Shown here in pieces: positions 10,750-43,107 of a DNA stretch of 64,000 nt (its first letter is position 1; the number at the start of each line of letters is the position of its first letter). The stretch is from assembly GCA_000004695.1 (NCBI GenBank), contig CM000152.2, forward strand, positions 3,616,001 through 3,680,000. The letters are read 5' to 3'. Under the pieces are notes generated by a model. That model was not told where the DNA came from and did not search any database. It worked only from the letters and a program-made list of their open reading frames with translations. This DNA comes from Dictyostelium discoideum. Its lineage: Eukaryota. Position numbers and translations under genes: made by a program.

Positions 10750-11247
10750 ATGTTATTAGAAATTCTCAACAGTTTAGTATCATTTTTTAGTAAGATATTC
10801 TCATTATTTGAAGGTAAAAAAGATATAAGAATAATAATGATTGGACTTGACCGTGTAGGTAATCCAATACTTTTATATAAATTAAAAGTAGGAGATGTTG
10901 TTTCAACCATTCCATCCATTGGATTCAATGTTGAACTATTGAATATAAAAATTTAAATGATAGTTTAGGATGTAGGTGGCCAGTATTAAATTGGCACATT
11001 ACAGAAACACTATAATCATGGTTCAAATGAAATCATCTTTGTAGTGGATAGAACTAATTGTGAAAGAATTAATCAAGTTAATGAAGAAGTTGATAATCTT
11101 TAATTCAAGATGAATTAAAAGGTAAATTCTTTAAATTTAAATTCAATTAAAGATAGAAAATGGTATATTCAACCATGTAGTGCCATTAAATCAAATGATA
11201 TATATGAAGGATTTGATTGGATTGCAAATTCACTCAATAATGAATAA
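10750..11247 (+). pseudogene. ARF (ADP-ribosylation factor) family GTPase pseudogene, copy A
   Basis: [34 protein letters not shown]...VSTIPSIGFNVE...IFVVDRTNCERINQV...NKQD...WYIQPCSAIKS...YEGFDWIANSLNNE, with in-frame stops and deletions. An (AAAAT)n tract precedes the ATG. Confidence 0.55.
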
Positions 11248-11639
11248 ATAAATGAAATAAATTAATAAATAAAAACCTTGTATATTTATATATATATATA
11301 TATATAGTAAAAATAAATAAATAAATAAATAATGTTAAATTAAATTTTTTATTTTATCTTTATTTATTTTATTTTAAGTTTTTTAAGTTTTAATTTTACA
11401 CATATGTGATTTGTGATTTTAAATTCACATTTTCTTTTTATTTTATTTGAAACAGTTTTTTACACCAACTTCTTTTAATTTTTTATGATTTTCTTTTGCA
11501 ATAATCATCCTAACAATATTTTTAAAAAAAAAAAATAAAATAATTGGTTAGTTTATATTTTTTTAATAAAAAAAAAAATAATTTCTTACAATGAGTTGAT
11601 TTTAATTTGATTTCAAAAAAGAGAATAGAAATTTGAAAA

Positions 11640-14671: not shown

Positions 14672-17406
14672 TTAAAATTTTTTACCTATAAATTTTTTCA
14701 CACGAAAAGGTATTTTAAAGTAATAGGCAAGAGCACCGATAGCAAGAGCACCACCAACACTACCAATTGTAGAACCTATTATTAAACCATTTGATGGTTT
14801 GGATGATTTAGTTTCAACATCTCTTTGACTAACGTTTGGTGATGGAGATAATTTAATTTCTTCAATTGTGACATTATATTGAAATGATGTTGAGTTAAAT
14901 AGGAGATATAATACTCCTGATGTATTTTTCACACTTGAACCGGAATGGCATGATAAACAATCAGTATTACTATTTGTAATATTAGTTTCACTTGAATCAC
15001 TATCATCAAGTATTTCATTTGGTGATAAACTACATTCTAAATTACATGAAAGAGGAACAGTTTCTGATGAAACTGTTAAGCTTGCATTGAGAATATCTGT
15101 AAAACTATAACCACGAATTATTGCTAAAATACCTTTTTCAATTTTATTTTCAATGGTTGGAATTTCTGAAATCATTGGTTTTATATAGGTCAATGTTGTA
15201 CTTGGTCCTGAACGAACTCCAATGAATGTTGTAACAAAGAGTGAACTCTCTCTACTTTCATCTCTAACTATTAATATCTTTTCATCTTGAGCAAATACTG
15301 TGGTATTTTTATTATTTGATTTTACATTAACTTTGAATTCTTTGTCACTTGTCAATAAATTCTTACCAGAAACTGTGATAAGACCTCCACAAGCAAGTGT
15401 TTTATTATCTTTATTTGTTATACGATAAATGACAGGAGGTAATGTTAAATAAAATAATGAATCCATATAATTACCATCTACAGTAATATTAATTGGGCCA
15501 TTTTCATATGAATCCAATATTTTAATAGTTAATTGATGATCTTCTAATTCTTGAATTTCTGATGAAATGTCACTACCATTTAAATAAACTTTAATTAATG
15601 ATGTTGAATTACCAAAATTATTACCGTGTAATTCAATATTAGTTCCATCATCAGAAATTGTACGATTCTCAACTTCTGGTGGTGCATATGAGAATTGATC
15701 ACTGACTGTCTCTGAGTTTAATTTGAATATAAATTGTTTATTAATACCAGTACCGTATGGTGTTGGACATGTTGTTTCATAGTAACTAGAATTTGATGAT
15801 GGTATTGAACATGGTGAGGCTGATGATGAATCACCAACAGTAATACTTGGTGCTGATGAACTAATTGTACAATCCATATAATATATTTCAATATTTAATA
15901 TTCCATTTGATACTGTTGGTCTATTAATTACATTTACTGATAATGATGCTGAAATTGAAAGTGTTTTTGCGGTAATACCAGAACGAGTGAAATTAATATT
16001 AAATGATCTACATCTTAAATGAGGTAATTCAAATGTTACACTCTTTTCATCAGATGATGATACATTAAATTGGCTAATGTTTGTATTTTTAATTCCATCA
16101 CCATATAATTGAATGGATGATTCGTTATTTGTACCAAGATTTGTACCAATTAATGTAACGATACCATTAGAATATGATCCACTTGATAATGTCGGAATAT
16201 TATATGTAAATGATACACCATTAGGACTTGTTGAATCACAACCACCGAAATTAACGTTAACTGGTAAGTTTTTACCACCCAATTCATTTGCATCCAATTT
16301 ACATTCCAATTCAGTTGTTGTTGATTTAATAAATTTACATACTTTATCACCAATTGTAATTGATGGTGTCAATGATGAATTTAAAGTTGAAGATAATTTT
16401 TCACCTTTAATTGTAACAATACCATCTAAATGATTTGATACTGATGATATTGATGTTATTATTGCTGGGAAACAATGAATATAATTCTTTTCTATTGAGA
16501 CCTCATCTACGGTAATATTAACAGACATTGGACCGGGATCAACTCTATTATAGTTATTCACTTGAATTTGTTTATGATTTACTGAAATGATAAAATTGGG
16601 TTGGTCAATACCATCAAAAGAAACCTTAACCAAGTCTTTATCTGTAAAGAAGTTATCACCATTAATTGTTATTATTTGTTTTGATGAGTCTGAGACAGAG
16701 CTTGATATTATAGGCGATTCGTATGAAAATGGTACAGGATTATCCCCAGTTTCATCATAGTACAACCTAAATTTTCCGGATCCTGGTGGAAATGTTACAG
16801 TAATATTATTACAGTCAAAAGATGGATCAGAGAAATTACCTTTAACAACAAAAGGTTTATTTACATCAATGGAATTAATAAGGAAATTAGGACCACCAAA
16901 TAATCTTAAATATGAGCCAGTAATGACTATATCTTCACCAGATGTTTTTGGTTTTTTACTATATTTCAAATTGTATACTTTTGGATAATATACTAAACCC
17001 GAAGCATCAAATGTACAATCCTCAACAGTATTTGATTTATCTCTAACACATACCTTACTGTCTATACTACCCCATAATCTTGAGAATGGTTCATCTGAAT
17101 GGAATAAACAATGTCTCTCTCCATCAACTAGAGAACAATTGAAATAATTTGGTGCCATTTCAGTTCTGGGTTCTTTTTCGTTTTTATACAAAATTAAACG
17201 GGTAGAATATGGGAGATTACTATTAAAAATTAATGTAAATGATTTATCATCATATATTGCATCTAATAAAAAAAATTAATTACATAAACAAATTATTATA
17301 AAGAATTAAAAATTTAATGATACTTACCTATTGGTGTTGGAGGATTCATTGAATATCCTGATATAAAGAACAAAAATAAAATCAGTAATATTATTTTCTT
17401 TTCCAT
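14672..17406 (-). CDS. tgrC1: IPT/TIG-repeat single-pass membrane glycoprotein of the tiger (Tgr) family. Short cytoplasmic tail, so TgrC1-like. Two exons, 889 aa.
   Basis: Exon 1 is 17406..17328 (ATG, then signal peptide [26 protein letters not shown], phase 1). Donor is GTAAGT and the intron is 17327..17263 (65 bp). Exon 2 is 17262..14672, in phase. Many NxS/T sites and repeated ~90-aa beta-rich modules with ITG.NLG motifs. C-terminal [25 protein letters not shown] followed by a 14-aa tail. Head-to-head with the paralog at 17930. The paralog number is tentative. Confidence 0.6.
16113..16433 (+). other. Antisense ORF inside tgrC1 exon 2, not a gene
   Basis: Fully embedded opposite a well-supported CDS. 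Confidence 0.1.
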
Positions 17407-17597
17407 TTTTATCAATGATTTTTTTTATTTTGAATTTGGCTTTTTAATAATTTTTATAAAAGAAAATTAAAAAAGAGAAATTTAATTATTTTAGGAAAAT
17501 TTAATTTTTATTAAATAGATAAAAAAAGATTAAAAAAAAAATTAATTTATAATAAATGTAGAAAAAAAAAATAAAAAAATAAAAAAATAAAAAAATA

Positions 17598-17628
<31 letters not shown>

Positions 17629-17929
17629 TAAATAAATATATAAATTAAAAAAACAAAATAAAATAAAAAAATAAATAATAATAATGAAAAAAAACCATAA
17701 AATTCTAAAAATAGAGGCTATCTGGTGAATGAGCTTGAGTGTGGTATTTCATTTATTTGAAAAGGGGTATTTTTTTTTTTGTTAAACCCCTTTTTCTAAA
17801 AATAAAAAAAAAATTTTATTTGGTAGGGGCAAATCATTTTTTTTTTTTATTATTAATAAAAATAAATTTTTTTTTATTTTTTTTATTTTTATTATTGTTT
17901 AAATTTATAATGCTACAAGTTTTACAAAA
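17407..17929. promoter_or_regulatory. Shared divergent promoter between the tgrC1-like and tgrB1-like genes. Contains a conserved ~110-bp block (17700-17810) with an 8-bp palindrome AAAAGGGG...CCCCTTTT.
   Basis: A 523-bp AT-rich intergenic lies between two divergent ATGs. The only GC-containing block, ctaaaaatagaggctatctggtgaatgagcttgagtgtggtatttc...aaaaggggtattttttttttgttaaacccctttttctaaaa, recurs at 24750-24850, upstream of the second tgrB-like copy. Confidence 0.5.
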
Positions 17930-20441
17930 ATGAAAGTAATATATATTTATTTGTTATTATTATTAGTTTGTAAATTTTTATTTGTTAAATCAAGTTGCTC
18001 TTTAAAAGTTGGAAAAATAGAATGTACAAAAGAATTAGAAACGTTTTTATTATATAATGAAACAGTTGTCAATGTAAAAATGGATACAAATGGAGTAAAA
18101 TATTATTTTAATGCACTCGAGTTTCCTTACAAGAATCTGTTATGCGATTTAAATATTGATATTAAATTCACACCAGAAATCCCATCATTCCCAAATATAC
18201 CTACAACAGGTGGAGACTTCGGGTTCACCTTCAACTTTCCTTGCGACTATAGGCGAAGAGTCAAACGAATAGAAATAGAAAGAACTATATTATCTCTCAG
18301 TTTTGATACAAGCAAAAATCAGTTCGTTACTTACTTGAATCCAGGGTGTGGTCCTTTCAATATTAGTAGTAGTGGGATTCAGATTTTGAGTACAACTTAT
18401 GAAACTGGTGCCATACCCAATGTACCAATTCTCGATGATGATAAAGGTATTTTAACTATTCAAGGTAGTAATCTCTACAATACATCAATTAAAATTTATT
18501 CAAATAACATTCTTAAAGACACCAACCCTAGTGGTGCACTAGATGCTTCCCATTCTTCTGTCACATTCTCCGCTGAAGAATTTTTAACCCCAAATAATTG
18601 GACAATTGAAGTCTCAATATGTGGCTCATTTTATAAGAGCTATTCCTTCCCATATTTTCCAAAGCTCGATAAAATGGAGGGGGTACTTAATGATAATGGT
18701 GGTAATATGGTATTTACTGGAAAGCATTTAAGACCAAAACACAATGTTACTGGTACTTTTGGTAATAAAACTATTGAGTGTCTCACATCCAATTCTTCAA
18801 AAAGCATAACATGTACCATTCCAAGTCGTAAAAACTATGGTTTTCTTGGTTATGATATTCCTGTAACAATTACTGTAAGTAGGATACAATATATATATTA
18901 TAAATACATATTGTTATCATATAACATTACTAATTATTTTTTAAATAATATTTTATTAATAGATTGACGGTGAATATAAATCAAATACAATTAAAATATC
19001 TTATGATCTTCCATTGATTCAAAGTGTTTCACAAAGGGGTAATTCACAGATTTTCGATGTGACCGGTGTGTATTTTTCTGGTGTTAAGAATATGACTGTA
19101 ATTACTGGTAAAAACATGAAAACTGATATTATCCAAAAGAAAACTGCAACATTGGAAGAACCTGGATTTTTTATTGAAAGTAATTATACCATTTTTATAT
19201 TCCTACCAAATAATACTCAACCTGGTTTTATGAACCTTGTTGTTGGTGACGGTGGTAGTGAAACATTTACATCTCCAAGATATAATTTCAAGATCACTCC
19301 AACTATTACTGCTGGCCAAACCTTCAACTCAACTACAAGTGGTAATGATTTAGAAATTAAAGGCATCTTTATGAGAACTGTTGATTCTGATGGTAGAGAT
19401 GTTCCACTAACAGTCAATAGTGGGTCTGGTGGTCTTGTTTGCAATCCATTAAAAGATGGTGATGGTTTATTATTCACCTGTGTTCTAGGACCTGGTTTCG
19501 GTTCAAGCCATACAATGAACGTTTACTATAATCTTATACCCATTGGATCATTTACCGTTAGCTACAATCCTCCATACCTTGGCACAAGTGAACAAGAAAA
19601 AGATGGGACCATTAAAATGAATGGTAAGGACTTAGGGGAATCTGTTAAGGATTCAATTATGACCGTTGTTTATTCTGATGGTAATACAGTAAATGGAACC
19701 GTAATTAAAAGTAGTCATACTTCTCTTATATTTAGGTATCCTATAGGCAATAGAAACACTGCAAGCTATATATTCCAACTTGGTGATCAAAAGAGTAATA
19801 AGGCAGGTCCATTCACTTTGAAACCTATTATTGAAAACACTGATCCTGCTGTACCATGTGGCGGTGGAGTGGTTACTATCAATGGTCATTACTTTTTTAA
19901 CTATACCAAAGATACCACAACTATTACCATTGGTAAAGTACCATGTAATATTTCTTCAATTAGTGAAACAACCATTGAATGTGTAATTGTACCAAATCTT
20001 AGATCTCTTTCTCCATACTACACATCTGGCACTAAACCATTAGTAATCAGTAGCTCAAATCCTGGTACTGAAAAGGTCTACCAATTGACACCTGCAGGTC
20101 TAAACTATAAGTTTGCACCACCAACCATTACAAATACATCTGCAATTGATCAAACCGCTTTAATTACTATATATGGTACATCATTTGGTGATGCAAATCT
20201 TGAAATTCTAATCAATGATAAACCATGTACACAACCTGAAATTAACATTCACACCTATTCTAGTTTAACCTGTAATGTAACCAACTATGATGAAATGAAA
20301 ATATATAACTACTCTAATACTAAATTCAATATTAGTATCTCTGTTGATGGTCAGTACTTTATTGCTGATATTTTCCAATTTAAATGTAAGTTACATACAA
20401 TCATATCATTCTCTATCTTATTATTTATTACTATTGCTGTA

Positions 20442-20479
<38 letters not shown>

Positions 20480-23700: not shown

Positions 23701-24749
23701 TTAATGAATATCCTATTGATCTCATAAACTATTTTAATTTTTAAAAAATATTATAAAAAAAAGATTAATATGAAAAAAAAAAAAATGGAATAAAATAAAA
23801 TAATATAAAAAAATTAAAAACTTACAGATTTAGTTAAAATATTAACGAGTTGAGAGTTATTTGATTTATCATTAATTTGTATCTTTTATCTCTTGCTACT
23901 TGTGGTGGACCAAAATCAATTCAAAATCAACCAATTTCTTAACAGTGCGAATAAGACAAAAAGTATTTTCCAATACTTTCTCGAACCATGCAATATCTTG
24001 GATATCATCACTGTCATCTCTAAACCTTTTCTTGAAATTCTTAAAGCATCCTGTGATTAAGGTGAAAATAAAAAAAATAAAAAGGAAAAATAAAATTTTT
24101 TTTTTTTTTTTTTTTTTTCGACAAACGGAGCGCCAAAAATACAAAATGATTTGAAAAATAAAAATGTAATCATTCTAATTATATTTAAAAAAAAAAAAAA
24201 TTGGGTTAAAACAAAGGAACGGAATATATTTCTGATTAATTTTGTTTTAATATTTATAAACTGTTATAAAAAAAAAAATAAAAAAAATAAAAATAAACTT
24301 TTCTTTTTTTTTTCTTGTTATTTTAAAATAAAAGAAATTGCTAGAGTATAAAAATAATAGAAAGGTGTTTTAAATCATTATAAAACAAGAATATATAAAA
24401 ACAAATAAAAATGATAGGACTACAGTCATTCATTAGTTTTATAATTTAATAATAAACAATCATTTATTTATTTGTTTAATAATTTATTTATTTAAATAGT
24501 ACAGCTTATTCACAAATACCCAAACATCGATAATCTTAATCTACAATAATAATTATTAGAATAAAATAATTTAATAAATGATCAAACTGTTAGTCAATTA
24601 CCATCACCACCACCACCACCACCAACTCGTGATTCCAACACTATCTCACCAAACTCAACCATCTATTCTAACTTAACCATAAAACACCAGAAAAAAAAAA
24701 AATTTTAACAAATAAATTGAAAAAAAAAAAAAAAAAAAAATTATAATGA

Positions 24750-24850
24750 AATTCTAAAAATTGAGGCTATCTGGTGAATTGGCTTGGGTGTGGTGTATAA
24801 TTTATATGAAAGGTGTGTTTTTTTTTGTTGAACCCCTATTTCTAAAATAG
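24750..24850. promoter_or_regulatory. Second copy of the conserved tgrB upstream block
   Basis: ctaaaaattgaggctatctggtgaattggcttgggtgtggtgtat...gaaaggtgtgtttttttttgttgaacccctatttctaaaa. The palindrome arm is degenerate (GGTGTG where the first copy has GGGGTA). Confidence 0.45.
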
Positions 24851-24962
24851 AAATGCTTTTTTTTTTGTAAATAATATTTTTTTTTTTTTTTTTTATTTTA
24901 ACCTCAAATTAATTTTTTTTTTTTTATTATCGTTTTTATTTTAATATTATAATTTTAACAAA

Positions 24963-26043
24963 ATGAAAGTTTTATATATTTATATATTGTTATTGGTTTG
25001 TAAATTTTTATTTGTGAAATCAAGTTGCTCTTTAAAATATGAAAAAATAGAATGTACAAATGAATTTGAAACATTTGAATTATATAATGGTACTGTTGTC
25101 AATGTAAAAATGGATACAGTTGGAGGGAGATATTATTTTAATCCACTAAAGTTTCCTTACAAGAATTTGCTATGCGATTTAAATATTTTAATTAAATTCA
25201 CACCAGAAATCCCATCATTCCCAAATATACCCACAACAGGTGGAGAATTCGGGTTCACCTTCAACTTTCCTTGCACCTATAAGCGAACAGTCAAAGAAAT
25301 AGGAACAGAAAGAACTTTATTATCTCTCAGTTTTGATACAAGCAAAAATCAGTTCGTTACTTACTTGGATCCAGGGTGTGGTGCTTTAAATTTGTTTTTT
25401 GAAAATATCCAGATTTTGAATTCAACTTTTGAAACTGGTGCCATACCCAATGTACCAATTCTCGATGATGATAAAGGTATTTTAACTATTCAAGGTCGTA
25501 ATCTCTACAACACTTCAATTAAAATTTATTCAACTAACATTCTGAAAGACACCAACCCTATTGGTGCACTAGATACTTCCCATTCTTCTGTCACATTCTC
25601 CGCTGAAGAATTTTTAACTCCAAATAATTGGACAATTGAAGTCTCAATATGTGGCTCATTTTATAAAAGCTATTCCTACCCATATTTACCGGTGCTCATC
25701 AAAATGGAGGGGGCACTTAATGATAATGGTTGTAATATGGTATTTACTGGAAAGCATTTAAGACCAAAACACAATGTTACTGGTACTTTTGGTAATAAAA
25801 CTATTGAGTGTCTCACAACCAATTCTTCAAAAAGCATAACATGTACCATTCCAAGTCTTAAAAGTTATGGTTCTCTTGGTTATGATATTCCTGTAACAAT
25901 TACTGTAAGTAGGATACAATATATATTATAAATACATATTGTTATCATATAACCAATTACTAATTATTTTTTAAATAATATTTTATTTAGATTGATGGAG
26001 AATACAAATCAAATACAATTAAAATATCATATGATATTCCAAG
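24963..26043 (+). pseudogene. Truncated tgrB-like copy: exon 1 plus the first 53 nt of exon 2 only
   Basis: Exon 1 (24963..25904) is ~90% identical at the protein level to tgrB1-like exon 1 (MKVLYIYILLLVCKFLFVKSSCSLK...PVTITVSRIQY), with a GTAAGT donor. Exon 2 starts at 25991 (IDGEYKSNTIKISYDIP) and homology ends at 26043. Confidence 0.6.
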
Positions 26044-27331: not shown

Positions 27332-27893
<562 letters not shown>

Positions 27894-28105
27894 ATAATAA
27901 AAAAAAAGTTCATATATTTTTATTATTATTTTTTATGTGTTTGTTTATTTATTTACTTATTTATTTTATCATTTAATTAATTATTTATTAGTCCGTTTGC
28001 TTATTAGTTTATTTATTTATTTTTTTATTTATTTTTTTATTTATTTATTTTAAAAGTTTTAATTTTATAAAATGTGATTTTAAATTTACATTTTCTTTTA
28101 ATTTT

Positions 28106-28228
28106 TTAAAAGTTTTTTCTTAAATATTTTTTTGCGCGACTTATTATTCTAAAAATAAAGAAACAACCAATGATAGAACAACTAGAAGCAATACCAATAA
28201 ATACAAAAGCTGCAGTTAAACCAGCTGA

Positions 28229-28260
<32 letters not shown>

Positions 28261-29240
28261 CTTCTTCTTCTTCTTCTTCTTCTTCTTCTTCTTCTTCTTC
28301 TTCTTCTTCTTCTTCTTCTTCTTTGCCAATAATATATTGTGTTAATGATATACCCTTAAGACTTATTGAATTACAACCACCGAAATTAACGTCAGGTGAT
28401 ACTATTTCACAAAATTCATTTACATCTAATTGACATTTCAATTGAGTTGTTTTTGAATTTATAAATGTACATTGTCTATCACAAATTGTAATAGATGGGA
28501 TAAATGATGAATTTAAAGTCGAAGATAATCTAGAACCATTAATTGTTATAATACCACCTAAATCATTTGGAAATAATGATACTGAATTTACTATTGCTGG
28601 GAAACAATAGGTATAATTCTTTTCATTTGAGACACCATTTACAGTAATACTAACAGATATTAGACCAGGATCAACTATATCATAGTTATACACTTGAATT
28701 AGTTTATGTTTTACTGAAATAACAAAATCAGGTTGATTAATACCATCAAATAAAACCGTAACCAGCTTTTTATTTGTATGGAAGTTATCACCACTAATTA
28801 CTATATCTTTTGATGGGTGTAAATAAATACTTGATATTTTAGGTGATCCATATTAAAATGGTAAAGGATAATACCCGTCTTGGTAAAGGACTACCCGAAA
28901 TTCTCGAGAATGGTTCATCTGCATAGAATAAACAATATCTCTTATTATATATATAGATGACAATCAAAATAATTTGGTACCATTTCATATCTGGGTGTTG
29001 TTTCGTTTTCATACAAAATGAAACGGGTAAAATATGGGGAATCACCGTTAAAAATTAATATAAATGATGTTATATCATATTCTACTTCTAATATAAAAAA
29101 TTAATTAATTTCATAAACACATTATTTTAATAAATAATTAAAAAATGATACTTACCAATTGGATTTGAAAAATCCATTGAATACCTTGATTTAAAAATTG
29201 AGAATAAAAATAAAATCAGTAATGAAATTTTCTTTTCCAT
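28106..29240 (-). pseudogene. Internally deleted, frameshifted tgrC-like copy with a (GAA)n poly-Glu insertion before the TM
   Basis: Exon 1 mimic at 29240..29155 (MEKKISLLILFLFSIFKSRYSMDFSNPIG|gtaagt). Exon 2 is broken by stops. The ORF 28106-28693 joins a mid-protein segment (NGVSNEKNYTYCFPAIVNSVS...VNFGGCNSISL) directly to a run of ~30 Glu ((CTT)n on the plus strand at 28231-28322) and a TM plus short tail. Confidence 0.55.
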
Positions 29241-29989
29241 TTTTATTAATAATTATTAAAAAAAGAAAATTAAATTAGAGAAATAATAATTAATATTGAG
29301 TAATTAATTAATTTTTTTTTTTTTTAAAAAAATAATAACAGCATGGGTTGGTAAAAAACTGTGTGAGATTAGTTGGCATGTGGAAAAAAAAAATATATAA
29401 TAATAAAACACAAAGAATTTCAAAAAAAAAATAAAAATATATAAAAAATAATAAATGTATGAAATAAAAAAAATGTTTTTTTTTTTTTTTTTTTTTAATG
29501 ATTAATTTTTTATTATTAATTTATTTACCTTATATATTTTATTAGTTATAAATACAAAAAGTATTTTTTAAAAATTATAATAATATTCATTTTAATAATA
29601 ACAATTTTTTTTTTTTTTTTTAATTTATTATTATTGTCATTTTCATTTTCTTTATTTTCATTATTATTATGATTTATTATAATAAATCATAGAAATAATG
29701 TAAATAGAGATATTCAAAATGACAACAATAATAAAAACGTTTTTCACACCAAAAAGAATTAAATTTTTTTTTTTTCTTTTTTTTTTTTTCTTTTTTTTTT
29801 TTTCTTTTTTTTTCAAAAACCTTCAAATTTTTTTTTTTTTTTTCATTTTCCATCATCTTTATAATTAATAATAAATGTAATTTTTCTTTAAAAATAATTC
29901 ATTTTTTATTTTTATTTTTTTTATTTTATTTTTTAAACCGTACATTTTATTAACTGTTATTAATTAATTATAAATTACTATCATATGGA

Positions 29990-31840
29990 CAAAGGCCAAC
30001 AACAAAAAGATTAACCACCTTCAAGATGTTGAAAAAGTGAATGAAGAAGAAAATAAAGTTTATAGTATCAGCATCACCAAAATTATATACATCAAAACCC
30101 ATATCACCTACTAGTAGTGGTAAAACTTCAACATGTTGGTAGAATATTTAGCAAGGCACTAAGATAGAGCCAGATCTGGATTATTTCAATTGTTTTATTC
30201 AAGTAGTTATCTTTTTTTTTTTTTTTTTGTGAAAATTTTAAATCAAAGATCAGGTGATATGGAATTCGATCAATTATCATGGTATCAGCATCAAATCCTA
30301 TAGAAACACTATCAATTCGCGTCCACCATCATCTATCGTTTAATGACCTATCCTGCAACTGATCCGGATTGGCAAATATTTTAACTGGTTTAGAATTATT
30401 CTACGTAAATCTTTAGAATGGTAATCACCAAAAGATCCAGAGCAACCATTAGGCGATAAAGACAAAACAATTGGTAGTAAATCAAATGTTTCAAAACTGA
30501 TGAAGAGATGAAAGATGAATCTAAGGTAATGCTGATGACAATAGTGGTATGACTTGGCCAACTCCATCTAAAAATAATACAGACATGTGCTCTTAACATC
30601 TTAAATTTCAACCACTACCACCACCACAATCAAGGGTATAACTCTGACTCTCAGTGGATATTCCACAAAATAAAGCTCAAGATGGTCGAGTAGAACAAGA
30701 AGAGGATCAAATGGATATCGATAATGAAGAAGAAGATGATATGGCTGTTGATCATAAACAAGAAATTAAACATCAAGATGATTCTAAACAACTCAATGAA
30801 AATAAAAAGATATCAATTTAAAACAAGATCAACATAAACAACATAAGGAAAAAGAAAAAGAAAAATTGGAAAAGATCAATAAGATGGTGAAGATGATAAA
30901 TTGGATGGTTTAAATCAAAAAGAACAATTCACAGAGGAACAATTAAAAAATTTCACAAATACTGAAAAGAAGATCTGGACAATTGGGACTTATTCTTGAA
31001 CCAACTTTGGCAACTAAATTACAAGGAGATTATAAACCAAAACCAACCAAGAGACAATATCAAGTTTTATTGACAATCATCGATAATACTTAATCAATGG
31101 CTTCCTATCACTGTGGTTTTGCATTAGAAGCTATGATACTATGATTTCAATGTAGTTGGTCAGTTAGGTATTGTTAGATTTGGAAAGATGATATTCAATT
31201 GGCGTTCATTCGATCAAGTTTTCTGATCAAACGCAGTGTCCTGCCTGAAATCACACAATTTAAACTCCAACAAACTAAAACCAATATGGTTAACTTCCTC
31301 TCCAAAACCCTTCAAGTCATGGATATGAATAAACGATCAAGTTTAGGTGAACTATGCATTGGTTTTCATTGTTTTTGATGGCTGAAGTTTTAGTGATCCA
31401 GAAACTACAAAGAAATATCAAAGATCAGGTTTAAATTTATTACGATCAATCATTCATAATAGATTCAAATCTAAAGGACATGAAAGAGATTAGAGGTTAC
31501 CAATAGTTAGCTTTTTAATTAGAAAAAATTGGGTATTGTATGATCAATTATTGTCAATACTAATCTCATCAATCAACACCTCAACTCATTAAATTCAGAT
31601 GGTCCAAAGAAGATAGATCTAAAAAAGATAAAGCAGCAGGGACTACAACAGCAACAACACCAACACCAACACCAACACCAACAGCGACAACAACACCAAC
31701 ACCAACAGCGACAACAACACCAACACCAACACCAACACCAACACCAACACCAACACCAACACCAACACCAACACCAACACCAACACCAACACCAACACCA
31801 ACACCAACACCAACAGCTGATAAACCCATTTCATTCTAAA
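29990..31840 (+). pseudogene. Degenerate pseudogene ending in an (ACACCA)n Thr-Pro repeat; inverted partner of 11640-12700
   Basis: Multiple stops in every frame, yet long stretches are alignable to X. It ends ...(TPTPTP)n TADKPISF*. The (ACACCA)n run is at 31622-31806. Confidence 0.3.
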
Positions 31841-42487: not shown

Positions 42488-43107
42488 TATAAATTATTGT
42501 TATTATCGTTTTATGTGTTGTTTTTTCTTTGGGGAAAAATTTTAATTAATAAATTGTTTTTTTTTTTTTTTTTTTTTCTTTTTCTTTTTCTTTTTTTTTC
42601 TTGATAAACTGGTTTTTTGTCTTTAAATTTTTTAAAATTTATTTTTTTATTTTATTTTTATTTTTTATTTTATTTTTTATTTTTTTATTTTTTTTTTGTT
42701 TAACTGATTAGTTATTATTTTATTTTTATTTTATTTTTTATTTTTTTGTTTTTTTTTTATATTTTCCTAAGAAAAAAAACCTTTTTCTAATTAGTTATTA
42801 TTATATGTACATGTATTGAGTATATTAAAATGTTTTTTTTTTTTTTTTTTTTGGAAAATTTTAAATTTCTTGGGGGGGAAAAAAAAAAAAAAAAAAAAAA
42901 AATTTNAAATTTTTAAAAAAAAAAAAACCCTTTAAAAAAGGGGGNTTTTTTAAATTTTTTTAAAACTGTAAAAAAGAAAAAATTTTTTTTTTTTGGTTAA
43001 AAAAAAACAATTCCAAAAAAGGCNNGNAATTTGCTTTTTTAAATTTCTTTTTTTTTTTTTTTAATTATATTTTAAAATTTTTTTTTTAATTTGTGATTAA
43101 AAAAATA

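What the first reader, a model, noticed from the sequence alone, without database searches (positions are those of the whole stretch)
17700..17810. Conserved GC-containing promoter block with an AAAAGGGG/CCCCTTTT palindrome upstream of both tgrB copies
In otherwise >90% AT intergenic DNA, a ~110-bp block lies ~130-230 bp upstream of the tgrB-like ATG. It reads ...GAGGCTATCTGGTGAATGAGCTTGAGTGTGGTAT...AAAAGGGGTATTTTTTTTTTGTTAAACCCCTTTT... It is conserved upstream of the truncated second copy (24750-24850), where the palindrome arm has decayed. It is a strong candidate for the cis-element that drives co-regulated divergent tgrB1/tgrC1 expression.
Basis: seen in the sequence. Interest (0 to 1): 0.5.

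Follow-up and report, generated by a model that had tools for sequence, protein, structure and literature searches.

The report
Conserved tgrB1–tgrC1 shared-promoter control module
A ~110-bp island of complex, G/C-containing DNA in the 523-bp promoter shared by the Dictyostelium self-recognition genes tgrB1 and tgrC1 is real and is kept, in the same order and orientation, next to tgrB-type genes in other strains and two sister species, so it is most likely an ordinary, so far undissected, transcription-factor binding module.

Summary
The window is the D. discoideum tgrB1/tgrC1 (lagC) locus. Positions 17697-17805 are a 27% G+C island in an intergenic region that is otherwise 8% G+C, and a second copy lies at 24746-24850 upstream of the truncated tgrB copy.

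Between the two window copies the block has diverged at least as much as synonymous sites (16/104 vs 21/204). That similarity only reflects the age of the duplication.

Better evidence comes from 12 related loci.
- Among intact tgrB–tgrC pairs the block is much more conserved than synonymous sites (3/107 vs 35/200, p=9e-5) and than the next 100 nt.
- A three-part signature, CTAAAAATAG, then a TGTG box, then (A/T)GGGGT about 45-58 nt on, recurs facing tgrB in the pairs of D. citrinum and D. firmibasis and in a diverged paralogous pair.
- This signature occurs nowhere else in 246 kb.

The AAAAGGGG/CCCCTTTT palindrome is real, but as a structure it is not convincingly conserved.

Best reading: an upstream activating module. 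The candidate factors, MADS/Mef2-type and GBF-type, are unproven. It is a new member of a known kind and of modest interest.

The parts
17697..17805 (+). The conserved block, read towards tgrB1. It is 27% G+C in an intergenic region that is otherwise 8% G+C.
   Evidence: nhmmer hit 17687-17845
17705..17714 (+). E1: CTAAAAATAG, with flanks AAATTCTAAAAATAGAGG. It is the most deeply conserved element and an exact match to the Mef2-type MADS-box consensus CTA(A/T)4TAG.
   Evidence: Nine of the ten positions are invariant across the 8 aligned lineages, including D. firmibasis and D. citrinum; the leading C is A in L004. 21-nt exact match with the diverged pair L006, 0/200 shuffles. Consensus from PMC3640940. 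Pattern count in the window: 7 vs 2.5 expected.
17718..17723 (-). GATA-like site (AGATAG on the minus strand) inside GGCTATCTGGTGAAT.
   Evidence: Kept in W1, L001, L010, L004, W2 and L003, but changed to GATG in both L005 copies and absent from the other species. A weak candidate.
17740..17745 (+). E2: TGTGGT, a GT-rich G-box/CA-element-like box.
   Evidence: GTGGT is invariant in all 8 tgrB1-type copies. The equivalent is TGTGTG in L006, D. firmibasis and D. citrinum. It matches only 6 of 7 positions of the GBF consensus KGKGKGK in this copy.
17751..17769 (+). E3: ATTTATTTGAAAAGGGGTA. It holds the 5' palindrome arm AAAAGGGG (17760-17767). The cross-species core is TTTGA(A/T)(A)GGGGT.
   Evidence: The spacing from E1 to GAAAGGGGT is 54/54/54/53/41 nt in W1, L001, L010, L006 and L009.
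17770..17786 (+). T11 run plus GTTAAA. This is the spacer (loop) between the two palindrome arms.
   Evidence: The spacer is 19-21 nt in tgrB1-type copies, about 70 nt in L006/L009 and about 85 nt in D. citrinum.
17787..17794 (+). 3' palindrome arm CCCCTTTT, which reads AAAAGGGG on the minus strand.
   Evidence: CCCC is kept in 7 of 8 tgrB1-type copies and is CTCC in L001. It is present as ACCCC in L006, L009 and D. citrinum, and absent in D. firmibasis.
17796..17805 (+). A second MADS/TATA-like box, CTAAAAATAA.
   Evidence: It is only patchily conserved.
17821..17835 (+). A further small G/C-containing patch, GGTAGGGGCAAATCA. It corresponds to GAAGGGCAAA(T/C)AAT in other copies.
   Evidence: It is deleted in the window's second copy.
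24746..24850 (+). Second copy of the block, upstream of the truncated tgrB copy (ATG 24963). The palindrome is broken and E1 is degraded to CTAAAAATTG.
   Evidence: It evolves at about the synonymous rate.
17930..20447 (+). tgrB1 coding region, read as two ORFs (17930-18967 and 19014-20447) with a short intron in between. It is the gene the block faces.
14672..17406 (-). tgrC1 (lagC), the divergent partner. Its ATG is at 17406-17404.
   Evidence: 99% identity to LagC AAF72532.1.

Best explanation
**What it is.** The block is a compact upstream regulatory module of the tgrB1/tgrC1 bidirectional promoter. It is a cluster of short binding sites for sequence-specific transcription factors, embedded in low-complexity A/T spacer DNA.

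**Conserved core, in order, reading towards tgrB.**
- E1: AAATTCTAAAAATAG(A/G)G.
- E2: a GT-rich TGTG(G/T) box 16-37 nt further on.
- E3: TTTGA(A/T)(A)GGGGT about 45-58 nt from E1. In most lineages a second copy of E3 lies in inverted orientation (ACCCC...) at a variable distance.

**Proposed mechanism (inferred, not shown).** Developmental activators bind these sites in the aggregate and switch on transcription. Transcription starts from the poly-T-marked core promoter about 80 bp downstream for tgrB1. It probably also starts from the core promoter about 180 bp away on the other side for tgrC1.

**Candidate factors.**
- A MADS-box protein of the Mef2 type for E1.
- The G-box binding factor GBF for E2 and E3; lagC/tgrC1 is reported to depend on GBF.

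**Shown vs inferred.** The conservation, order and orientation of the elements are shown here. Which factors bind, and the direction and timing of the effect, are inferred.
For: 1. **Island of conservation among intact pairs.** AX4 vs L001, L010 and L004 is 95/89/87% identical over the block. The next 100 nt are 67/47/47% identical.
2. **Below the synonymous rate of the adjacent, highly polymorphic tgrB1.** AX4 vs L001 is 3/107 against 35/200 (p=9e-5). L001 vs L004 is 12/106 against 47/202 (p=0.014).
3. **Constraint is relaxed in the truncated or partner-less tgrB2-type copies.** W1-W2 is 16/104 against 21/204. W2-L003 is 10/101 against 21/205. These are also the copies in which E1 and the palindrome decay.
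4. **Cross-species footprint.** Nine of the ten positions of CTAAAAATAG are invariant in all 8 aligned lineages, including D. firmibasis and D. citrinum, whose TgrC1 is only 57-61% identical. The leading C is A in L004.
5. **Specificity.** The E1+E2+E3 signature occurs 6 times in 245,755 nt on both strands. Every occurrence is in a tgrB–tgrC intergenic region and faces tgrB.
6. **Deep match.** AX4 shares a 21-nt exact match with the diverged paralogous pair L006 (0/200 shuffles).
7. **Link to the gene's 5' end.** A 5'-truncated tgrB copy (L002) that lacks the gene start also lacks the block.
8. **Position.** The block lies upstream of the predicted core promoters. These are predicted from TATA-like boxes plus sense-strand poly-T tracts, following the architecture in PMC3371697.
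9. **Literature.** The 524-bp region holds the coordinately regulated promoters. lagC expression depends on GBF, whose response element is (T/G)G(T/G)G(T/G)G(T/G). The Mef2 consensus is CTA(A/T)4TAG, and tgrC5 is Mef2A-dependent with such a site.
Against: - No expression, transcription-start or binding data were available, so function is inferred from conservation alone.
- The strict GBF 7-mer is absent from the AX4 tgrB1 block (best match 6/7), although it is present in the degraded second copy.
- E1 is A/T-rich, and the consensus occurs 7 times in the window (2.5 expected), so a single match means little without the conservation.
- tgrB1 and tgrC1 were not among the genes listed as Mef2A-dependent in the passages of PMC3640940 that were read.
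- The GtaC ChIP-seq supplements held do not mention tgrB1 or tgrC1.
- One intact-pair comparison is not significantly below the synonymous rate (W1-L004, p=0.2).
- Synonymous divergence at tgrB1 may be inflated by balancing selection, which would exaggerate the contrast.
- Part of the apparent 'island' arises because A/T homopolymer flanks change by slippage.
Confidence: 0.68

Rival explanations
1. The block is a bidirectional core promoter, not an enhancer. The two TATA-like boxes CTAAAAATAG (17705) and CTAAAAATAA (17796) would bind TBP and launch transcription outwards. The left box would serve tgrC1 and the right box tgrB1, with the G/C core between them.
For: - Both boxes match a loose TATA pattern, TAAAAATA.
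- A poly-A run (poly-T in the tgrC1 sense) lies directly left of E1 at 17687-17694. A poly-T run at 17837-17848 lies about 35 nt right of the second box.
- This fits the poly-T/TATA/transcription-start layout of PMC3371697.
Against: - Neither box matches TATAAA(A/T)(A/T).
- The second box is not conserved in L010, L004 or D. firmibasis.
- E1 is conserved with specific flanks (AAATTC...AGAGG), which TBP would not require.
- It would give tgrC1 a 5' UTR of about 280 nt.
- Better TATA/poly-T candidates lie closer to both ATGs.
Confidence: 0.1
2. The block is transcribed, as a long tgrB1 5' UTR, an upstream transcript or a small non-coding RNA. The AAAAGGGG/CCCCTTTT arms would then form a functional RNA hairpin, or a DNA cruciform.
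For: - The hairpin is predicted in W1, L001, L010, L004 and L003, at -9.6 to -12.2 kcal/mol with z about -2.
- It is lost in the degraded copies W2, L005a and L005b.
- D. citrinum has an 11-nt perfect inverted repeat, TTTGATGGGGT/ACCCCATCAAA. Three of its arm positions are changed on both sides relative to D. discoideum.
Against: - There is no Rfam match; the best is 15.8 bits against a threshold of 87.
- Pair counts are no better than with the 3' partner slid by +1: 69% vs 72% paired, covariation 0.143 vs 0.178.
- The loop varies from 19 to about 85 nt.
- D. firmibasis has no C-rich arm at all.
- The z-scores are modest.
- The DUSE-like ACCATAA upstream in AX4 is not conserved in any other copy.
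- The 18-codon ORF starting at 17729 is not conserved (reading of alignment A2).
Confidence: 0.08
3. There is no function. The block is a neutral relic that travels with tgrB duplications. It only looks conserved because complex sequence can be aligned, while the A/T flanks scramble by slippage.
For: - The two window copies differ as much as synonymous sites do.
- Homology between them starts at about the 5' edge of the block.
- The W1-L004 comparison is not significantly below the synonymous rate.
Against: - The rate is far below synonymous between AX4 and L001 (p=9e-5).
- Elements are retained in the same order and spacing in pairs whose proteins are only 52-61% identical, where neutral intergenic DNA should be unrecognisable.
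- Decay is seen specifically in the truncated copies.
Confidence: 0.1
4. The block is a fragment of a dispersed repeat or mobile element, with the palindrome arms as terminal repeats. It would be unrelated to tgr regulation.
For: One partial copy (the 5' half only) sits at a rearrangement junction away from any tgrB start, in strain GCA_054859355.1 (L003 10706-10781).
Against: - All other copies lie 120-400 bp upstream of a tgrB-type ATG.
- No further copy was found in 246 kb of dictyostelid sequence.
- There are only two copies in the 64-kb window.
- The whole genome could not be searched.
Confidence: 0.03

Closest known systems
GBF-responsive G-box / CA-rich elements of post-aggregative Dictyostelium genes. 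The closest case is the paired G-rich boxes in the shared promoters of divergent sigN genes (PMC2257962).
   Same: - Short G/GT-rich boxes sit in an A/T-rich promoter and are shared by two divergently transcribed, co-expressed developmental genes.
- lagC (=tgrC1) is reported as GBF-dependent.
- The G-rich elements come in pairs, one inverted.
   Different: - The strict consensus (T/G)G(T/G)G(T/G)G(T/G) is not present in the AX4 tgrB1 block.
- There is no sequence homology to the sigN promoters.
- There are no binding or mutational data.
Mef2-type MADS-box site CTA(A/T)4TAG, as reported in the promoter of the Mef2A-dependent tgr family member tgrC5 (PMC3640940).
   Same: E1 is an exact consensus match. 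It is the best-conserved element across three species and is found in a tgr-family promoter.
   Different: - tgrB1 and tgrC1 were not among the genes listed as mis-expressed in mef2A mutants in the passages read.
- The site is A/T-rich and could instead be TATA-like or bound by another factor.
Generic Dictyostelium promoter layout: poly-T-demarcated transcription start, TATA box about 29 bp upstream, and activator elements further upstream in A/T tracts (PMC3371697).
   Same: The block lies upstream of TATA-like/poly-T candidates for both genes and is flanked by poly-A and poly-T tracts.
   Different: The transcription start sites of tgrB1 and tgrC1 were predicted here, not read from data.
Dictyostelium Class I non-coding RNA genes (DUSE upstream element plus a stem joining the two ends of the RNA).
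   Same: A short G/C-containing unit in A/T-rich intergenic DNA that can form a terminal stem, with a DUSE-like ACCATAA upstream in AX4.
   Different: - There is no Rfam hit.
- The DUSE-like motif is not conserved.
- No conserved Class I motif was seen. That judgement rests on my recollection of the motif, not on a test.

Membership tests
GBF-responsive G-box element | One or, usually, two copies of (T/G)G(T/G)G(T/G)G(T/G) | tested here: inconclusive
   There is no 7/7 match in 17697-17805; the best is AGTGTGG at 6/7. There are three 7/7 matches in the second copy, at 24785-24818. TGTGTGT is present in D. firmibasis and TGTGTG in L006 and D. citrinum.
GBF-responsive G-box element | The target gene needs GBF for expression | not tested
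   Literature only. PMC2257962, citing Iranfar et al. 2006, states that lagC expression is GBF-dependent.
GBF-responsive G-box element | GBF binds the sequence in vitro or in vivo | not testable with these tools
   Needs EMSA or ChIP.
Mef2-type MADS-box binding site | Sequence CTA(A/T)4TAG | tested here: met
   CTAAAAATAG at 17705-17714. Consensus from PMC3640940.
Mef2-type MADS-box binding site | The site is conserved in orthologous promoters | tested here: met
   Exact in AX4, L001, L010, L005a, L006, L009, D. firmibasis and D. citrinum. One mismatch in L004, W2 and L005b.
Mef2-type MADS-box binding site | Expression depends on Mef2A or SrfA, and the protein binds | not testable with these tools
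   The passages read from PMC3640940 list tgrF1 and tgrC5, but not tgrB1 or tgrC1.
Known non-coding RNA family (Rfam, incl. Dictyostelium RNAs) | Covariance-model match at or near the gathering score | tested here: not met
   Best hits are 15-21 bits against thresholds of 44-100, all to unrelated bacterial or miRNA families.
Conserved RNA/DNA hairpin | Pairing maintained by compensatory changes beyond controls | tested here: inconclusive
   69% of cells are paired and 5 pairs have changes on both sides (8-14 of 500 shuffles reach this). However, the control with the partner slid by +1 scores as high or higher. The arm is absent in D. firmibasis.
Dispersed repeat / mobile element | Many copies at loci unrelated to tgr genes | tested here: not met
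   In 246 kb held, all full copies are upstream of tgrB-type genes, plus one partial copy at a rearrangement. A whole-genome search was not possible.
Dictyostelium core promoter | TATAAA(A/T)(A/T) about 29 bp upstream of a start site at the 3' end of a sense poly-T tract | tested here: not met
   There is no TATAAAWW inside the block. Better candidates are at 17857 plus poly-T 17867-17884 for tgrB1, and 17551-17544 on the minus strand plus poly-A 17532-17541 for tgrC1.

The most novel reading that the evidence does not exclude
The inverted pair of TTTGA(A/T)(A)GGGGT elements may be a structural device rather than two independent binding sites. Its arms appear to change together between D. discoideum (GAAAAGGGG/CCCCTTTTC) and D. 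citrinum (TTTGATGGGGT/ACCCCATCAAA). One form would be a cruciform or hairpin; another would be a site for a dimeric factor. Either could couple the two divergent promoters so that the TgrC1 ligand and TgrB1 receptor are produced together, with purifying selection holding it constant while the coding regions beside it diversify.
Probability: 0.1. Interest if true: 0.6.

Novelty: new member of a known kind. Interest (0 to 1): 0.35.

Why it matters
tgrB1 and tgrC1 encode the receptor and ligand of the Dictyostelium kin-recognition ('greenbeard') system. They must be expressed together at the switch to multicellular life. The literature read here treats their 524-bp shared promoter as a black box.

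This work gives a defined module of about 110 bp with three cross-species conserved elements. That offers concrete targets for promoter dissection and names candidate regulators to test.

It also shows strongly constrained regulatory DNA lying about 130 bp from one of the most polymorphic coding regions in the genome. The finding is useful to specialists but not surprising. G/C-containing islands in Dictyostelium promoters are expected to be regulatory.

Tried and rejected
- **Rfam scan of 17300-18000 at E<=10.** Only sub-threshold matches to unrelated families.
- **The repeat finder over the whole window.** The output was swamped by A/T low complexity and was uninformative. It was replaced by blastn and nhmmer scripts.
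- **Metagenome scan with TGTGGTRTWTMATTTATWTGAA.** Seven hits, all unrelated contexts at 26-38% G+C and none dictyostelid. These are chance matches.
- **GtaC ChIP-seq supplements (PMC4506546).** Searched for tgrB1, tgrC1 and their gene IDs; no occurrence. The GATA-like CTATCT is also not conserved outside D. discoideum tgrB1-type copies.
- **Literature searches for a dissection of the tgrB1/tgrC1 or lagC promoter, or for GBF half-site rules.** Nothing was found in the searchable library.
- **Class I RNA / DUSE idea.** The DUSE-like ACCATAA is specific to AX4.
- **Small-ORF idea.** The ATG at 17729 opens 18 codons, but the ATG and the frame are not conserved.
- **blastn of whole intergenic regions.** The alignments run into poly-A and do not delimit the block.
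- **The window's own TgrB1 protein.** The protein search did not return it; the top hit is the 84% identical tgrB2-type product. TgrB1 alleles of at least 90% identity from other strains could therefore not be fetched.

Full report
**1. Where we are.**
The window is A/T-rich amoebozoan DNA. The + strand ORF starting at 17930 and the − strand gene whose ATG is at 17406-17404 are divergent and 523 bp apart. The − strand product is 99% identical to LagC/TgrC1 of Dictyostelium discoideum. The + strand product finds only tgrB-type proteins. A published tgrB1 primer, AAATGGATACAAATGGAG, matches at 18079.

**2. The observation.**
- The quoted sequence is at 17713-17795, and the block as a whole is best delimited as 17697-17805.
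- It holds 29 G/C in 107 nt (27%). The other 416 nt of the intergenic region hold 33 (7.9%).
- A second copy lies at 24746-24850, upstream of a shorter tgrB-type ORF starting at 24963.
- The 17-mer GAGGCTATCTGGTGAAT occurs twice in 64 kb with up to three mismatches allowed, against 0.02 expected.
- The 8-nt arms AAAAGGGG (17760-17767) and CCCCTTTT (17787-17794) are there. A G/C-containing inverted repeat of this size arose in 5 of 2000 shuffles of the intergenic region.
- In the second copy the arms read GAAAGGTG and CCCCTATT and no longer pair.

All factual statements in the finding hold.

**3. What the second copy does and does not show.**
The two copies are the 5' end of a 1.36-kb duplication, 17652-19013 vs 24707-26041, 87.9% identical. 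Recognisable homology begins at about the left edge of the block. I compared the block with synonymous sites of the first 318 codons.
- AX4 copy 1 vs copy 2: block 16/104 differences, synonymous 21/204.
- Copy 2 vs its orthologue in another strain (L003): block 10/101, synonymous 21/205.

Upstream of the truncated gene, the block drifts at about the neutral rate. It is not evidence of function.

**4. Related loci.**
Protein searches with the two TgrB1 ORFs and with TgrC1 and twelve look-ups gave 12 dictyostelid loci, about 182 kb in all. A profile of the block (nhmmer) finds it in these places:
- Upstream of tgrB-type genes in L001 and L004. These are two intact tgrC/tgrB pairs of D. discoideum GCA_054859385.1.
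- In L010, an intact pair in 'D. cf. discoideum'.
- In L003 and twice in L005. These are tgrB2-type copies without a divergent partner.

It lies 120-280 bp upstream of the ATG in every case. A tgrB copy that is truncated at nucleotide 56 of the coding region (L002) has no block. One partial copy, the 5' half only, sits at a rearrangement junction in L003.

**5. Constraint among intact pairs.**
- Against AX4, the block is 95% (L001), 89% (L010) and 87% (L004) identical. The following 100 nt are 67%, 47% and 47% identical.
- AX4 vs L001: 3/107 in the block against 35/200 synonymous differences (Fisher p=9e-5).
- L001 vs L004: 12/106 against 47/202 (p=0.014).
- AX4 vs L004: 13/106 against 38/204 (p=0.2).
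- In L010 the first 296 nt of tgrB coding sequence are only 76% identical to AX4.

The block is thus better conserved than the neighbouring, notoriously polymorphic gene. Two caveats apply. Balancing selection may inflate synonymous divergence there, and homopolymer slippage lowers the identity of the flanks.

**6. Deep conservation.**
- The diverged paralogous pairs L006, L009 and L008 have TgrB-type products 52-71% identical to AX4. The orthologous pairs of D. firmibasis (L018) and D. citrinum (L019) have TgrC1 57% and 61% identical.
- All of these keep recognisable pieces of the block, in the same order and facing tgrB.
- AX4 and L006 share a 21-nt exact match, ATAAAATTCTAAAAATAGAGG (0/200 shuffles).
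- In an alignment of eight lineages, nine of the ten positions of CTAAAAATAG are invariant; the leading C is A in L004.
- The composite signature is CTA(A/T)4TAG, then a TGTG-type box within 70 nt, then (A/T)GGGGT within 90 nt. It occurs six times on either strand of 245,755 nt. Every occurrence is in a tgrB–tgrC intergenic region and faces tgrB. L009 has the first and third elements only.
- The E1-to-GAAAGGGGT spacing is 54, 54, 54, 53 and 41 nt in AX4, L001, L010, L006 and L009.

At these protein divergences, unconstrained A/T-rich intergenic DNA should not be alignable. This is the strongest evidence for function.

**7. The palindrome.**
- As RNA, the hairpin is predicted at -9.6 to -12.2 kcal/mol (z about -2) in AX4, L001, L010, L004 and L003. 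It is lost in W2 and both L005 copies.
- D. citrinum has an 11-nt perfect inverted repeat, TTTGATGGGGT ... ACCCCATCAAA, about 85 nt apart. Several arm positions differ from D. discoideum on both sides.
- On ten arm pairs, 69% of cells pair and five pairs show double changes; 8-14 of 500 shuffles reach these values. Sliding the 3' partner by one column does as well or better (72% paired).
- The spacer ranges from 19 to about 85 nt. D. firmibasis has no C-rich arm at all. Instead it has four tandem copies of a unit holding TTTGAAAGGGTTATTTCAAAA.

The simplest reading is two copies of one sequence motif in opposite orientation, not a selected hairpin. A structural role is not excluded.

**8. What it is not.**
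- No Rfam family matches.
- The DUSE-like ACCATAA left of the block is AX4-specific, and the 18-codon ORF at 17729 is not conserved.
- The block contains no TATAAA(A/T)(A/T).
- Following the Dictyostelium promoter layout of PMC3371697, the best core-promoter candidates are these. For tgrB1: TAAAAATA at 17857 with poly-T at 17867-17884. For tgrC1: TATAAATT on the − strand at 17551-17544 with poly-A at 17532-17541.
- This puts the block about 80-190 bp and about 175-285 bp upstream of the two predicted starts. These starts are predictions, not data.

**9. Which factors?**
- **E1 and Mef2.** E1 is an exact Mef2-type MADS-box consensus, CTA(A/T)4TAG. Another tgr gene, tgrC5, is Mef2A-dependent and carries such a site (PMC3640940). 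MADS-box motifs become accessible at the multicellular transition (PMC8094536). However, the consensus occurs 7 times in the window (2.5 expected), and tgrB1 and tgrC1 are not listed as Mef2A targets in the passages read.
- **GBF.** lagC is reported to need GBF, whose response element is (T/G)G(T/G)G(T/G)G(T/G) (PMC2257962). The GT- and G-rich boxes resemble this, but the AX4 block has no 7/7 match.
- **GATA.** The GATA-like CTATCT is not conserved beyond the closest copies. The GtaC ChIP supplements do not mention these genes.

Factor identity therefore remains a lead, not a result.

**10. Verdict.**
The block is real and under purifying selection where the gene pair is intact. It is specific to tgrB/tgrC-type intergenic regions in the sequence available. 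It is best explained as an upstream regulatory module of the shared promoter (confidence about 0.7). The conclusion is probably right, but the argument from the second copy is wrong and the emphasis on the palindrome is not borne out. I found no published dissection of this promoter. As a kind of object it is ordinary for Dictyostelium: a new member of a known kind, with interest about 0.35.

Noticed in passing
window 27436-29254 (− strand) and 10854-11439: There are further tgrC1-like fragments. 28331-28876 and 28890-29254 are about 80% identical to the tgrC1 5' part. 27436-27907 and 10854-11439 are 79-89% identical to the region 3' of tgrC1. The fragment at 29254 keeps a tgrC1-like start (…TTTTCCATTTTTATTAA) but has no block upstream of it.
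   Followed up: partly
window 24590-24700; L003 5560-5660; L005 5540-5620: Directly upstream of the second block copy lies a CCA-repeat, coding-like fragment (ACCATCACCACCACC…AACTCGTGATTCCAACACTATCTCACC). It is conserved in two other strains, so the tgrB2-type duplication was inserted into or next to another sequence before these strains diverged.
   Followed up: no
L003 10706-10781: An isolated 5' half of the block (AAATTCAAAAATAGAGG…GATGAATGAGCTTTGTTGGTGGTGTTTCATTT) sits at a junction where homology to window 30871-31227 stops abruptly. It is a strain-specific rearrangement and is not next to a tgrB start.
   Followed up: partly
L018 7660-7800 (D. firmibasis, − strand): The tgrB–tgrC intergenic region holds four tandem copies of a ~37-nt unit containing the palindromic TTTGAAAGGGTTATTTCAAAA. 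D. citrinum has one related copy (TTTTGAAAGGTTGTTCAAAAAT). This may be an amplified version of element E3.
   Followed up: no
loci L001, L004, L008 and proteins P0015-P0019, P0029-P0033 (assembly GCA_054859385.1): This single D. discoideum assembly carries many tgrB- and tgrC-type genes, including at least two intact-looking divergent pairs with the block and a 120-kb contig with several more. That is far more copies than the AX4 window shows. It may be real copy-number variation or an assembly of mixed haplotypes.
   Followed up: no
L010 8001-8320, L005 1633-2110: Some tgrB-type reading frames in the new assemblies hit early stops (codon 107 in L010, codon 158 in L005a). These are either pseudogenes or homopolymer indel errors in the assemblies. 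It affects how 'intact' the L010 pair really is.
   Followed up: no
window 17930-18967: The protein search did not return the window's own TgrB1, although AX4 proteins are in the database. The best hit was the 84% identical 339-aa DDB_G0280693 product, apparently the truncated second copy.
   Followed up: no
window about 42871-42936: An N sits inside a G7/A-run/C3 low-complexity stretch (TGGGGGGGAAAA…TTTNAAATTT…CCC). It is probably an unresolved spot in the reference assembly.
   Followed up: no
L019 1-1047 (D. citrinum): A GATA-type zinc-finger gene (PF00320) lies about 3.6 kb beyond the 3' end of the tgrB-type gene of the tgrB/tgrC pair, and about 6.6 kb from the shared intergenic region. 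There is no evidence of any link to the GATA-like site in the block.
   Followed up: no
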